Positions 13,637 through 27,932 of a stretch of 32,993 nt of DNA are shown here, piece by piece. This stretch comes from Octopus sinensis (lineage: Eukaryota). Each line of letters begins with the position of its first letter. The stretch's first letter is position 1. The DNA lies in contig NW_021832735.1 in assembly GCF_006345805.1 (NCBI RefSeq), positions 1 to 32,993 on the forward strand. Reading direction: 5' to 3'. The notes beneath the pieces were generated by a model that had not been told where the DNA came from, made no database searches, and was given only the letters and a program-made list of their open reading frames with translations. The position numbers were made by a program, and so were the translations under genes.

Positions 13637-13708
13637 GGTTTCCCAAGTCTCAGAACAAGCAAGTCCAGACAGAGGCATTTACTTCAAAAGATGCATCACA
13701 GCAAGTTG
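13637..13708 (+). CDS. Mini-exon A (72 nt, phase 1-1): FPKSQNKQVQTEAFTSKDASQQV, LC8-type motif
   Basis: Acceptor atttatttcag, donor TTG|gtgagt, length divisible by 3, open frame. Confidence 0.8.
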
Positions 13709-14162
13709 GTGAGTATAAAATAACTAATTGATTTCTATCAATTTTACCTTCACCTGAGGCATTCATGGATTACTTAATAATACTAAGGAGAGATCAGAAG
13801 GATATGCAAATAATTCTGGTTAGACTGGATTAACTCATTATTTGGGGCAAAAGTGTGGTTTAAATCGAATAAGTAGTGCTGTCTATCGTTTGTAGATGAT
13901 CAGCAGAAACAAGTGAAGTTACAAATAGTAAGAGTAATCGTGCCAAAAGCTTGAAGACAATGGTACGGTAGCTTGCTGAGAGACACGTCTTGAGGAAATA
14001 GGATCAAGGCACAAACTGTGATGGAGTTAAAATCAAAACATAATGCAAAATAAATTTGGCGCTTCCAGTTTGATTTATATCTGTCTTGCTTATATATTCT
14101 TGAGAGTCAGTACTATTCCAGATATAATTCCTTTGCAATAATATGTAAATGTACGTTCATAA

Positions 14163-14396
14163 ATCTATCTATCTATCTTATCTCTCTCTCTCTCTCTCTC
14201 TCTCTCTCTCTCTATCTATCTATCTATCTATCTATCTATCTATCTATCTATCTATCTATCTATCTATCTATCTATCTATCTATAGATGTATATATATATA
14301 AACAAATGTATATACATATATCCATTCACACACACATAAATATGTGTGTGTGTGCGTGTGTGCGTGTGTGTATGTGCTTGTGTGTTTGTGTGTGTA
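14163..14396. repeat. (TCTA)n/(TC)n/(TG)n compound microsatellite
   Basis: Direct reading; counterpart at 17652-17898. Confidence 0.95.
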
Positions 14397-23103: not shown

Positions 23104-26100
23104 ATGATCACTACATGCAGATACCACGTTTTGACTGTAAAAGTATTATGAAGTCGCATTCATCCAAATTCCGTCCCCTTTGCCCAGCTGTGTCCAAAAT
23201 ATTGCAGCTCACAGACTCCGATAATGATTCCAAGAACCTGGTCACAGTTTCAAGAATCGTTGAAATCTGCAATGGAATAGTAACCTATTCACCAGATTTG
23301 AAGTTAATAAGTTGTGCCACAACAGGCGGTGATTTTGATTTCATTGTTCTTCTAATGTCACAGACATGACAAGAATTGGTGAACACACTGTTCTAGCCAC
23401 AATTCCTTTCCGCAAGAAAATAGTTTTCATTAATCCATCAAGTTTCCACATAAAATCTCTGGATTATAGTTTCTTTACAATTTCTTATTTCGAACATTCT
23501 ACATTTGTAGGGACTGAAATTTTAGTAAGACAATATATCTCATAGACTGGGATAAAAATAAATTTGAAGAAAAATTTAGTGTGAAGAAATTGTTGGAAAC
23601 ATAGCAGTTGGTCCACAGTATCATATCTTAATAGCCTTAGCTAATATAAATAGAATTAGCTGTTACACAATAGATGGTAGACACTTGTTTCAGTTGAGGA
23701 CCCATTCCATCGATATTCCAACCGACCTCACCGTATATCGAAATTATTCTTATGCTCTGCAAGGAAATGTAATTTACAAGATTTCAGCAAACGGTGCTGT
23801 GTCCCAAAGAGAAATTGGGATAAAAGCTCGATATATTTGTGTGGCAACAAATAATATTTACTTGACTGACCGTTTTAGTCTTTTGCATATTATTAGGACA
23901 AATAAAGATTTTTGGCCTCGGCTGTCTTACCATCACCAAGACCATGTCCCGAGCCTGATAAACCAAATCCATATTGATGACCCCTCCAACATTACAACGA
24001 TTCTACCTATATCAGCCTCTTCAGTAGTAATTATATATCGGGATCTAAAAGCTATATTAGTTACTGACGAAGGACAACCGTTTGGTGGAAAATGTTTAAC
24101 CTTTAAACTCCAGCCTTCTGTTTTCTGTAGAGTGGATTCGAACACATTTCTTGTCCTTTTTAGTGAGGACAGGAAACTTCAGTATATTACCTGTCCACAA
24201 CTAACTGAAGGTGATTTAATAGACGTCGAAAACAATTACATTCAAATGTGTCATATGGTATCAAATAGGTGTTTGGCTCTGACCACCAATGAAGGTAAAG
24301 TGGAGGTACATATTTTATTGATTAAAAAGGATCATGTCGACATTGTAAACAGAATTTCATTGGAACATGACAATGTCGCCATTGCTGCTACTCCAATTAA
24401 TTTTGTAGTTGTAGACAGAAAGAAACGTAACTTGTTATTTTATTCAAGCTTGGTGAGGAGCTTTCCAAGAAACACATTGAGTTCAATGGCTATCCTCATC
24501 ATTTTTCACAGACAAATTATACTTCTATGTTATCTTCAGGAGAGAGTCTTTGATGACTTGTTACAATATAACTGGACAAAGGAAATGGCAGTTTAAACTT
24601 CCTTCAAACTTTCGCTGTCACGCTGCTGTTTTCCAAGGAACAGCTTATGTGCTGGACGATCTACTCAGTCGGATTCTTCTTTACAAGTACCATGACTGGT
24701 CAGACTGTCATATAACCTTTCAAAATCCTTATAATAAAAATCTAAATATTCGACTCGAAGAAAAGGAGAATGACCAAGTTCTCATTGGTAAAATATGTCA
24801 TCTGGCAAATGGAAAGTTGGTGGTGTCCGACATATATAATGATTGTTTGTTATACATTTCCAACGAAGGAACATTGTGTCTAGATTATCTCTGCCGCCGT
24901 CTACAGCTACAGATATATGTCGATGGAATTATAATCAGATAGGCGTCACATTACCTCTAGAGAAGCAATTACGGGTCTTCGGAAACGTATCAAAGGCAGT
25001 TATAAGTGTCATTAAACCAGCCTTATGTACGGGTGTGTAAGCTGGGTGAAAGTCATATTTGTTATTGCGATAACCATCGCATTTAGATATTTTAAACATT
25101 AAAAATTGTAATCAATTCAAATAATTCATAGAATTAATATTCCTTTTGTAATGAAATCATTATCGTTAGAAAATGAAACACTAAAACTATTGATTGTTGG
25201 TAAGAAAGCAGTATTCTTCTACAAGATCATCAGGGAGAGAGGAAAGAGTTTTTACCATGTGAAAACACCCACTCTATGGTGTGGTTATGACGGTGGTCCT
25301 TATAGCATTGAGATGATACCCAATATTTTACTGTCGCAAGGGAAAACACAATCCAATCTCTATGGTGGACGTATTGATAAAATGTGTGTTCATTTGATAG
25401 ACAACAGCCGCATGTTTGCTGTAAATGAGCATGACTTGCTGGTGAAAGATCATGTCACAAGAAGCCAAATTAACATGTTCATCGATCTGGTAGATGTATT
25501 TTCTAGAAACATCAGTCTCAGTGAAATGTTGTCTTCTAGATTGTATCTACAAGATCTCACAGTTTCTGATAAAGCTCATGAAGTTGTTGTCCCTCAAAGT
25601 TTTGGAGATAAACATCCAGTGGAGATTGGTTGTTTGGTTATTACAGAAAATAACCTGGTTGCTTTATATGACAGCACAAATGAAAACATTAAGATATTAA
25701 CTTTTGATGGTCAACTTGTTGACTCTATCAAGTTAAATGTTGTCCCTAGACATATGTGTTGCTGGCGATCAAACACATTGGTTATAACGACCAATAACTA
25801 TCAACTGCTGACATTAAAAGTGGAATTTCCATTGATCTTGGCAACTTACCACACGGAAAATAGATACAATTGTATCGCTTGTCGATCCGACAATCTACTG
25901 GTGTGTAGTAGTAGTAGTAGTAGTAGTAGTAGTAGTAGTAGTAGTAGTAGTAGTAGTAGTAGTAGTAGTAGTAGTAGTAGTAGCAGTAGCAGTAATGTTG
26001 ATGGTAATACCTGCATACCCGAAATTGAAAACGGCCTGTTTTATATATATATCGATGAAATACAGTCAGCTGTCCGTATTATGAGGGAAATAGACTTATT

Positions 26101-27932
26101 TTGGATGTGCTACAGATATAATATCACCCATATCTCAGTTATTGCTAATGACAACATCATCGTCAATACCGAGAGGCTCATCACTATTCTGAACCCGAAC
26201 GGGCAATATTTATATTCATTTAAGCACAGTATTTATTCCCGACCCATTTCTATGGCAACCGATGATACTTATTTGTACATTACTGGACGGAAGAACATCT
26301 ATGAAAACACGAAAAAGTATCGTATTGTCTCATTGTTGCAGAACGGTGAATACAAGAGAATATTCTTAAATGAAAGACATTATAAACGTCCGTTGGATTT
26401 CAACAGTATTAACTGTAAAGGCCCGAGAATTGTTGCAAACTATGACTCGTACTTATATATTGAAGGTTTGTACAAGATTAATCGGCAAAAATTCCCCGTT
26501 TCACGGTTACAAACAAACAATTGTCCTGTTCAAGTAAAAGATATCGATATCTCTGATGAAGGAAAGACAGTTGTGTGCGAAATGGCCAATAGTGGAAATG
26601 TTAAACTATTTGATGAAGACGGGAAGTTGCTATGTTACAGAGATTTTGGAAGTTTTGTTGGTGGTGTATGTTTTACAGGAGAAAGAAATATCTTGGTCAC
26701 AGTCCCTAACAGACAAGAAATATTTCAACTGAAGTCACAAAACTTGGAGAAATATAAAGTTTGGGAAAGTCGAGTACCTTATGGTATAATATGGAGAAAA
26801 GTGGGAAATATTTACTGGTGTGTACATATCAACATGATTGAATGTGATACTATAAAAATTGATGGGGACCAACTGAAGGTTCTGGAATCTATGTCGTTAT
26901 CAAATCTTGATTCTGGCCTTCATTTCCCTTCCATTACATCTCAGAAGAAGAAGGGAATGTTCAGTAATGAATTATTTAACAAACTTAAAAACCGTAGCGA
27001 TGGAGGAGAAAGAAGAAGTACATCAAGGGAAATAGAAGTAAGACGTGGTAATTACATAGCGGAAAGTATGTTAGGAATTGATGAAATATCAGTGAGAAGA
27101 CTGCCACATAGAACAGCAATGTTCCCGCTTTCATTTTCTCTATCTGGTTTACTAGATTCAAATTCGATGTTTTGTTTTCTAATGCTTTTAAGCTAATTAT
27201 GTTACAAGACAATAGTATCGTCGTGCTCCTCCATAATGTACTCTCATGGTCACCAGTGGAGACGGTCATCTGCTTTACAGTCAAACATTTGAAAAAGAAG
27301 CTCAAGATATATGTCAATGGACCGATGAATCATTTGTAGTCCTCTTTCGTACGATAAACAACTGATGTTCTTCGATACAGATTTGTGTCTTTAAAAAAGA
27401 TCACAACTGAAAAACCATACAATTTAATGTACAAAAAGAACGGCAATAATCTGGTATGTGTTTTGAAGACGCTCCAAATGAATGTAGTATATTCCATATG
27501 TGACATACGCAGACATACTTCACATTGGCCATGAAATGTACGAGTATAAGGCCAGTGAATTTAGGGAAGGAGGGGAAGGTTGTAGCAATGGGTGTGACAT
27601 CGAATGAAGACATTGTCGTTCTTAAGTACAAGGAAGATCATTACGATGTATGTTGGTACAGAGACAATTGGGTTAGAAGTCAACAACTAATGATTCAAGG
27701 TGAGGAACCATTTCCAAACATTTTCAACAAATCCTTGACCATCCACGGCGAAAATATTTACATATCAGATTTTAATAACAATATCCGCCAAGACAGCAAA
27801 TGCGAAATCTTTCTCAGCTCTCAGGAAATTGAAGTCTGCCACATCAAGGCCATACATGTTTCGGATTATTTCATCATGATTTACGGAAGTTTGGACAACC
27901 GTTTTGATGGATTATTTTATTATGAGAGATAA
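23104..27932 (+). CDS. Large terminal exon encoding ~6 tandem NHL-like beta-propeller modules (~1600 aa if repaired); many 1-nt frameshifts
   Basis: Acceptor ttattcag at 23103, phase 1, in frame with ORF 23115. Consecutive ORFs 23115, 23685, 24550, 24843, 25151, 27525. Repeating motifs like ICHLANGKLVVSDIYNDCLLYISNEG, LVITENNLVALYDSTNENIKILTFDG, IDISDEGKTVVCEMANSGNVKLFDEDG resemble mollusc TRIM-like C-terminal propellers. Confidence 0.8.
25907..25993 (+). repeat. In-frame (AGT)n microsatellite encoding 29 Ser
   Basis: 87 nt of agt/agc codons within ORF 25151..27196. Confidence 0.95.

What the first reader, a model, noticed from the sequence alone, without database searches (positions are those of the whole stretch)
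13637..27932. Exon-array-encoded LC8-type motifs fused to a ~6-propeller protein
Seen: four intact phase-1 mini-exons not in the ORF track, giving NKQVQTE, DNEVQTE, DNEVQTE, DNKVQTE, spliceable in frame into the 23104 exon. Known: DYNLL/LC8 binds short [T/V]QT-anchored motifs in disordered regions, and multivalent LC8 binding dimerises partners such as ASCIZ and Nup159. Inference: one motif per symmetric exon means valency could be tuned by exon duplication, loss or skipping, dimerising a multi-propeller receptor-like protein. I do not recognise this architecture from any described protein.
Basis: partly seen in the sequence, partly recalled or inferred. Interest (0 to 1): 0.85.

Follow-up and report, generated by a model that had tools for sequence, protein, structure and literature searches.

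The report
Octopus chimeric ligase with LC8-motif exons
Four tiny octopus exons, each coding one likely dynein-light-chain (LC8) binding motif, appear to be reworked copies of a death-domain exon from an expanded ubiquitin-ligase family; in RNA-type data laid on a near-identical sister copy they splice onto a giant exon predicted to fold into six propellers, giving a likely new chimeric ligase whose pairing strength could be set exon by exon.

Summary
In detail: four AG/GT phase-1 exons each encode VQTE and join the 23104 exon in frame. Contigs from 4 of 4 RNA-type runs, laid on a 98%-identical sister copy, show these junctions. The mini-exons are the linker cassettes of an octopus-expanded ankyrin-RING-linker-Death ('MIB-like') family. 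They are homologous to the exon for death-domain helix 1 (EEKCLQDVA versus EEKAVQTVA, Q at codon 10). In six contigs the death domain is replaced by a ~1,610-aa exon of six NHL-type propellers taken from a large, mostly intronless family. One copy keeps an intact RING exon upstream. There is no signal peptide or membrane segment, so this is a cytosolic TRIM-NHL-like chimera, not a surface receptor. NCBI isoforms of a parent gene carry 1-4 cassettes. LC8 binding is untested, and QT is mostly lost in one parent subfamily (5 of 45) and in two fused contigs. The window copy lacks ankyrin/RING exons and has 20 frameshifts, most likely sequencing errors. Verdict: new variant of known kinds, interest 0.62.

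The parts
13637..13708 (+). Cassette exon E1, 72 nt, motif QNKQVQTE; same length, register and QQV end as the death-domain helix-1 exon
   Evidence: 72/72 identical to the C9449 exon whose donor is joined
15120..15170 (+). Cassette exon E2, 51 nt, motif VDNEVQTE
   Evidence: 51/51 identical to the C9449 exon joined on both sides
18622..18672 (+). Cassette exon E3, 51 nt, motif VDNEVQTE; holds the only in-frame ATG of the four, used as start by NCBI model P0092
19825..19875 (+). Cassette exon E4, 51 nt, motif VDNKVQTE
   Evidence: 49/51 identical to the C9449 exon joined to the propeller exon in 4 of 4 runs
10330..10392 (+). Splice-dead cassette copy (CG acceptor, AT donor, in-frame stop)
18972..19025 (+). 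Splice-dead cassette copy (AT donor, in-frame stop; VQA here, VQT in sister copies)
8147..13636 (+). Intron sequence of the MIB-like cassette array; homology to sister copies begins at 8147; no ankyrin or RING exon in the window
13757..18824 (+). Tandem duplicate 13757-15322 / 17247-18824 (94.6%) that made E2 and E3
22212..23103 (+). Cassette-array intron segment running up to the acceptor of the large exon (fusion junction; six contigs carry it)
23104..27932 (+). Large terminal exon, six NHL-type beta-propellers (~1,610 aa when intact); 20 frameshifting indels in this copy; poly-Ser tract at 25905-25994

Best explanation
The window holds the 3' part of a young octopus chimeric gene in which cassette exons of an ankyrin-RING-Death ('MIB-like') family are spliced to a six-propeller NHL-type exon in place of the death domain, and the full product is likely a cytosolic E3 ligase that LC8 would hold as a dimer. 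Shown: exon anatomy; homology of the cassettes to the MIB-like linker and to the death-domain helix-1 exon; splicing E1>E2>E4>propeller in RNA-type contigs laid on a sister copy; NHL-type fold of the first propellers; an intact, in-phase RING exon upstream in one sister copy. Inferred: the RING and ankyrin exons are spliced to the array; the cassettes arose by duplication of the helix-1 exon (LQD to VQT/TQT/SQT); each D-x-x-V-Q-T-E binds an LC8 dimer, zipping two chains in parallel so that two RINGs pair at one end and two propeller arrays at the other; LC8 thereby does the job the coiled coil does in TRIM-NHL ligases; exon number or skipping sets avidity. The role is probably recognition and ubiquitylation of variable targets, likely in immunity (from the expansion pattern only). 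The window copy itself is probably a 5'-incomplete duplicate whose frameshifts are mostly consensus errors.
For: Splicing: joints with CT..AC ends at the predicted borders, E1>E2, E2>E4 and E4>propeller in 4 of 4 runs from 4 studies, E2>propeller in 3 of 4. NCBI models P0062, P0091 and P0092 splice a cassette into DDHYMQ. Origin: the same cassette with ~70% flanking identity lies in arrays elsewhere. A death-domain exon 2 was found downstream in 6 of 7 such arrays first examined; the seventh contig ended before it. Pfam Death was hit. NCBI proteins P0057, P0060 and P0061 read ankyrin-RING-cassettes-Death. Q is codon 10 in both exon types. RING: C9449 has an intact AG/GT phase-1 zf-C3HC4_3 exon upstream on the same strand; O. 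vulgaris models P0072/P0093 carry ankyrins plus a closely similar RING ahead of DDHYMQ. Propeller: ESM Atlas NHL clusters at 0.91-0.92; distant hits are mollusc B-box/NHL proteins; best structural matches include Brat, Lin41, TRIM2, Mei-P26, NHL-2 and TRIM71, Z 19.3-20.7, rmsd 3.1-3.5 A over 230-240 residues. Homology to the intronless paralogues starts at the first codon after the acceptor. Motif: fits the published preferences (-4 polar/Asp, -1 and +1 branched, +2 E/D/P) and resembles validated binders SDKGVQTP, RHQSVQTE, TSNETQTA, VDKETNTE. In fused copies V-Q-T has pS 0.37 and pN 0.03, against 0.29 and 0.25 at the other codons; 10 of 11 distinct live exons keep VQT. A canonical LC8 gene is present. 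Valency: isoforms P0096, P0099, P0097 and P0098 carry 1, 2, 3 and 4 cassettes.
Against: No binding data or complex model. [TVIS]QT occurs in only 25 of 90 distinct live cassette exons: 10/11 fused, 10/19 other, 5/45 CPK subfamily, 0/9 death-helix, 0/6 SLNL. Q may simply be inherited from the helix exon. The pS/pN contrast is pairwise and pseudo-replicated, resting on about five events. C8846 and C10426 have one exon reading VETE. Asn at -3 is not the preferred Lys/Arg, and non-TQT anchors tend to be weaker. Only 1 of 6 fused contigs shows a RING upstream; none was found within about 51-55 kb upstream in C8321 and C8846, and NCBI models of C9449, C8846, C10426 and the window start downstream of it. 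The O. vulgaris fusion models skip the cassettes, and one (P0090) looks like a read-through prediction. A RING>cassette junction was not tested. The E2>propeller joint could come from a copy that lacks E4 rather than from skipping. The RNA alleles fit C12623 (29/30) better than the window (26/30), so expression of the window copy is not shown. The bacterial PknD propeller ties with Brat at Z 20.7.
Confidence: 0.5

Rival explanations
1. The chimera and splicing are real, but the VQT words are leftovers of duplicated death-domain helix-1 exons; the cassettes are a neutral, length-variable spacer that does not bind LC8 in vivo.
For: Q10 is shared with the helix exon; 40 of 45 CPK cassettes and both VETE copies lack the anchor; splice-dead copies also keep VQT; tandem duplication is rampant in these loci.
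Against: T+1, E+2 and D-4 are absent from the helix exons yet recur in several cassette clades; position -1 switches among V, T and S, the residues seen in validated anchors; Q codons differ synonymously far more than non-synonymously outside CPK (pS 1.43, pN 0.10).
Confidence: 0.27
2. The working product is a RING-less LC8-dimerised propeller scaffold or decoy, translated from the Met in E3 or from a new first exon, as in the NCBI models.
For: Five of six fused contigs show no RING; NCBI models P0062, P0091, P0092 and P0046 start at or after the cassettes; RNA alleles fit C12623 best.
Against: C12623's array begins about 12 kb from a contig end, and C9449's RING lies 1.6 kb from one, so upstream exons may be missing from the assembly; the C9449 RING exon is intact; E1 and E2, upstream of that Met, keep open frames and motifs.
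Confidence: 0.15
3. The fused copies, the window above all, are transcribed pseudogenes produced by segmental duplication.
For: 20 frameshifts and no 5' exons in the window; larger frameshifting deletions in C8321, C8846 and C10426; non-synonymous codon changes exceed synonymous ones between copies, 50:23 for the window.
Against: 15 of 20 frameshifts are single-base deletions, none is an insertion, and there are no nonsense substitutions; private 1-bp deletions number 16 in the window against 1 and 0 in C12623 and C8321; C12623 is intact for 1,628 codons; a 2,741-nt RNA-type contig aligns without gaps to the open frame.
Confidence: 0.08

Closest known systems
TRIM-NHL E3 ligases (TRIM2/3, TRIM71/Lin41, Brat, Mei-P26)
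   Same: RING at the N-terminus (in the inferred full gene), a dimerising middle, NHL-type propeller at the C-terminus; top structural matches.
   Different: Six tandem propellers instead of one; ankyrin repeats; zf-C3HC4_3 RING; no B-box found; LC8-type motif exons in place of a coiled coil; assembled by recent exon fusion.
Mind bomb (MIB1/MIB2) ligases and the octopus 'MIB1/2-like' NCBI models
   Same: Ankyrin repeats followed by a zf-C3HC4_3 RING; the cassette linker is shared with the octopus models.
   Different: No MIB_HERC2, ZZ or MIB-repeat domain among Pfam hits, a single RING; the octopus parents end in a Death domain, the chimera in six propellers. (MIB architecture recalled.)
Multivalent LC8 clients (ASCIZ/ATMIN, Chica/FAM83D, Nup159, KANK1, 53BP1)
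   Same: Several T/V-Q-T anchored motifs in a low-complexity linker; spacing 17-24 aa. Linker length and motif sequence tune such complexes (PMC10046861, abstract).
   Different: One motif per symmetric exon, with motif number varying between paralogues and annotated isoforms; apparent origin from a folded-domain exon; binding not yet shown.
Octopus intronless six-propeller family (uncharacterised; e.g. LOC118767965, LOC106868082; Argonauta relatives)
   Same: Same propeller exon, 50-63% identical; 140 hits in this genome, clustered on C30 and C28.
   Different: Their ~130-240-aa N-terminal segment is replaced by spliced exons in the six fused contigs.

Membership tests
LC8/DYNLL client | T/V/S-Q-T anchor with polar -4, large -3, D/E/P at +2 | tested here: met
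   By-eye comparison with the position rules and Table S4 binders; Asn at -3 in E2-E4 is sub-optimal but occurs in ATMIN TSNETQTA. LC8Pred itself not run.
LC8/DYNLL client | Motif lies in a disordered, cytosolic region | tested here: inconclusive
   No signal or membrane segment; linker is acidic and Pro-containing, between RING and propeller; no disorder predictor run.
LC8/DYNLL client | Direct binding to an LC8 dimer | not testable with these tools
LC8/DYNLL client | Anchor conserved in homologues | tested here: inconclusive
   10/11 fused, 10/19 other, 5/45 CPK.
TRIM-NHL (RBCC) | RING domain | tested here: inconclusive
   Intact RING exon in C9449 only; absent from the window; junction to the array untested.
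TRIM-NHL (RBCC) | B-box and coiled coil | tested here: not met
   No B-box in Pfam scans of P0055, P0072, P0093 or the intact exon; only cassette exons found between RING and propellers.
TRIM-NHL (RBCC) | NHL-type six-bladed propeller | tested here: met
   Pfam NHL itself does not hit the intact exon.
Mind bomb E3 ligases | N-terminal MIB_HERC2/ZZ/MIB-repeat substrate module | tested here: not met
   Not among Pfam hits of P0057, P0093, P0098; models may be 5'-incomplete.
Mind bomb E3 ligases | Ankyrin repeats followed by zf-C3HC4_3 RING | tested here: met
   P0055, P0072, P0093 and parents; these are predicted models.
Octopus ankyrin-RING-cassette-Death family | Cassette exons with the shared intron flanks | tested here: met
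Octopus ankyrin-RING-cassette-Death family | C-terminal Death domain | tested here: not met
   No tblastn hit of P0057/P0058/P0060/P0061 in the window; window contig not among 135 death-exon hits.
Cell-surface propeller receptor (LRP/teneurin type) | Signal peptide and membrane segment | tested here: not met
   Highest 19-residue hydropathy 1.42 in the intact exon, no N-terminal hydrophobic stretch in parents or P0093.

The most novel reading that the evidence does not exclude
Octopuses built multivalent LC8-binding arrays anew by duplicating the first exon of a death domain and mutating its helix into TQT-type motifs, used them as a splice-tunable dimerisation dial in an expanded family of ankyrin-RING-Death ligases, and then re-invented a TRIM-NHL-like ligase by swapping the death domain for six NHL propellers, with LC8 replacing the coiled coil.
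Probability: 0.3. Interest if true: 0.85.

Novelty: new variant of a known kind. Interest (0 to 1): 0.62.

Why it matters
If LC8 binding holds, this is a natural series of 0-4 motifs, one per exon, across paralogues and isoforms. It would make a standing question directly testable: how valency tunes LC8 assemblies and the activity of a RING. It would also be a traceable case of a short linear motif arising from a folded-domain exon, and of a TRIM-NHL-like architecture assembled convergently. Even without LC8, it points to two large octopus families (about 135 death-exon hits; 140 propeller-exon hits) and a recent fusion between them, which my searches did not find described.

Tried and rejected
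Single-sequence fold: pLDDT 36.8, discarded. Pfam on window ORF pieces and the intact exon: no propeller family. PDB sequence search with alignment A1: only weak hits, Brat E 0.5. Genome-wide IUPAC pattern for QT mini-exons: too loose, 242 hits against 141 for the control; listed hits were not family members; not used. Idea that the propeller acceptor is the death-domain exon-2 acceptor: no profile hit at the junction; rejected as unshown. Idea that the acceptor arose inside old propeller coding sequence: no homology upstream of 23104. Coiled-coil homology of the paralogues' N-terminal segment to mollusc TRIMs: not significant. A per-branch count of motif changes was not made; only pairwise counts between present-day copies. 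Run search: no holder is on record as RNA, only guessed; the GT-AG joints at exon borders are what argue for RNA. Reads were laid on sister copy C9449, not on the window, and did not cover the RING exon. Earlier scan notes: three look-ups, nothing. No position-specific score was computed from the published binder list.
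Full report
Observation. The window is a whole 32,993-nt contig of G000 (C9206), an Octopus genome by homology. The four exons are as described: AG/GTGAGT, lengths 72, 51, 51 and 51, phase 1, coding NKQVQTE, DNEVQTE, DNEVQTE and DNKVQTE. They exceed chance (6 exon-like hits against a mean of 0.1 in 200 resamplings) but are copies of one cassette. E2 and E3 sit in a 94.6% tandem duplicate, and two more copies are splice-dead.

The large exon. It starts at 23104 and is broken in the window. 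Against the intact paralogue C12623 (1,628 open codons) it shows 79 substitutions in 4,814 nt and 24 indels, 20 of them frameshifting. Fifteen are single-base deletions; the only insertions are in frame; there are no nonsense changes. Private 1-bp deletions number 16 in the window, 11 in C10426, 6 in C9449, 1 in C12623, 1 in C8846 and 0 in C8321. That pattern suggests unpolished long-read consensus (my inference); a young pseudogene is not excluded. The exon belongs to a family with 140 hits among 140 scored candidates, many in open frames of about 1,800 aa on C30 and C28. All 45 and 54 protein hits are Octopus or Argonauta. It is NHL-type: Atlas clusters 0.91-0.92; distant library hits include mollusc B-box/NHL proteins; a profile built from those hits matches at six positions. 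An AlphaFold model of the first 640 aa (49-row alignment, pLDDT 77, pTM 0.47) matches tandem propellers and, per domain, Brat, Lin41, TRIM2, Mei-P26, NHL-2 and TRIM71 at Z 19.3-20.7, tied with bacterial PknD. Propellers 3-6 were not modelled in full. There is no signal peptide or membrane segment.

Splicing. Four runs from four studies (RNA guessed, Logan contigs) were laid on 10 kb of sister copy C9449, whose E1, E2 and E4 are 72/72, 51/51 and 49/51 identical to the window's. Joints with CT..AC ends fall on the predicted borders: E1>E2, E2>E4 and E4>propeller in 4 of 4 runs, E2>propeller in 3 of 4 (12 further joints were not shown). The last may come from copies lacking E4. Of the 40 variant rows shown (204 not shown), the 30 in the large exon fit C12623 at 29, C8321 at 27, the window at 26, and C8846 and C10426 at 23, so the expressed locus is not pinned down. 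NCBI models already splice a cassette into the exon: P0062, P0091, and P0092, which lies on a 32,993-nt contig and starts at the Met in E3.

Origin of the mini-exons. The cassette recurs at about 70% identity in other loci, coding KETQTQ, KASQTE, KGVQTD, RCVQTE and KAVQTV. Those arrays end in a 72-nt exon such as TPKLEEKCLQDVAKLLGVDWQQV, followed by an exon with a Pfam Death hit; 135 of 150 scored candidates match that exon. The NCBI proteins read ankyrin-RING-cassettes-Death and are named MIB1/2-like; the Death match begins in the 72-nt exon. That exon shares flanks, phase and register with the cassettes, with Q at codon 10. The 51-nt form lacks seven codons, and window E1 keeps the 72-nt length and QQV end. 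A tree of 77 rows (one per peptide out of 102, exon middles removed) has few supported deep branches and only a midpoint root. Direction from helix exon to motif exon is therefore inferred from the age of the death fold, not shown.

The fusion. Six contigs carry the junction; C8846 and C10426 differ by 0.45% and may be one locus. Cassette-array intron sequence runs to 23091, and homology to the intronless paralogues starts at the first codon after the acceptor. C9449 has an intact phase-1 RING exon upstream, 1.6 kb from the contig end. O. vulgaris predictions P0072 and P0093 put ankyrins and a closely similar RING before DDHYMQ; P0055 and P0090 do so with other RINGs, and P0090 looks like a read-through. 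The other five contigs, the window included, show no ankyrin or RING. Live QT exons per copy: window 4, C8321 4, C12623 3, C9449 3, C8846 0, C10426 0.

Is it LC8? From PMC6607443 (12 passages, outline, Table S4 in full, search hits in its other held supplements; Tables S1 and S3 not readable): anchors are T/V/I/S-Q-T, -4 favours Asp, -3 large, +2 P/D/E; binders include SDKGVQTP, RHQSVQTE, RCVSVQTD, TSNETQTA and VDKETNTE. The window motifs fit, with Asn at -3 a weak point. PMC12057147 (passages) says non-TQT anchors tend to be weaker. PMC10046861 (abstract and outline) shows linker and sequence tune multivalent complexes. Of 137 cassette contexts found in the fetched loci, 90 distinct live exons of 51, 72 or 78 nt were scored; dead copies, other lengths and one Arg-rich exon were left out. 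[TVIS]QT occurs in 10/11 fused, 10/19 other, 5/45 CPK, 0/9 helix and 0/6 SLNL exons. In the fused group the core changes synonymously (pS 0.37, pN 0.03; other codons 0.29 and 0.25), on few independent events; in CPK there is no such sign (0.19, 0.24). A canonical LC8 gene exists. NCBI isoforms of one parent gene carry 1-4 cassettes. I put in-vivo LC8 binding at about 0.6.

Mechanism and comparison. Best reading: ankyrin-RING-(LC8 zipper)-six NHL, working like a TRIM-NHL ligase but not a member (no B-box or coiled coil) and not a true Mind bomb. That RING ligases and TRIMs act as dimers, and the MIB domain order, are recalled. An immune role is a guess from the expansion pattern.

Literature. 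Ten searches, seen as listings and abstract starts, returned nothing describing these octopus families, the fusion, or exon-per-motif LC8 arrays. Subscription papers and supplements of cephalopod genome papers were not seen and could list these expansions.

Verdict. Observation confirmed; interpretation partly supported and extended; new variant of known kinds; interest 0.62.

Noticed in passing
window 1771-4218 (+): Broken Penelope-like retroelement: RVT_1 (E 5.7e-4) and GIY-YIG (E 7.3e-4) pieces, both below curated cut-offs.
   Followed up: partly
window 15487-16002 (+): LINE C-terminal fragment between two (AAT)n tracts in the E2-E3 intron; looks like a restriction-endonuclease-type LINE end (label recalled; only a weak Pfam hit).
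   Followed up: no
window 25905-25994: In-frame poly-Ser triplet tract inside the fourth propeller, of variable length among the six copies.
   Followed up: partly
L045, L057, L061, L054; window 18972-19025: A cassette with intact acceptor and xVQTV but an AT instead of GT donor is shared by four loci, three with open frame. A-to-I editing at +1 could in principle restore the donor; speculative and untested.
   Followed up: no
G000:C27:15807736-15808938, C11515:36-1603, C10645:29085-30153: CPK subfamily: ~166-bp exon-plus-intron units in tandem, up to about nine per locus, mostly without the QT anchor.
   Followed up: partly
G000:C1:41735553-41762719 and C1:107080390-107100331: Tandem ~3.5-kb copies in which ankyrin exons match as one uninterrupted stretch and death exons carry stops: probably amplified processed pseudogenes of the MIB-like family.
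   Followed up: no
G000:C30 and C28: Dense cluster of intronless ~1,800-aa six-propeller genes, no Pfam annotation, found only in octopods in these searches.
   Followed up: partly
G000:C8471:1-20000 (L165, L166): Array closely related to window 8147-13664, repeated about three times, in which E1 is cut before the VQT by a new donor.
   Followed up: partly
G000:C8321 about 201-207 kb: A LINE inserted between cassettes supplies the spurious N-terminus of O. vulgaris model P0003.
   Followed up: partly
G000, several contigs: 22 matches to the dynein light chain family, several divergent and in small clusters.
   Followed up: no
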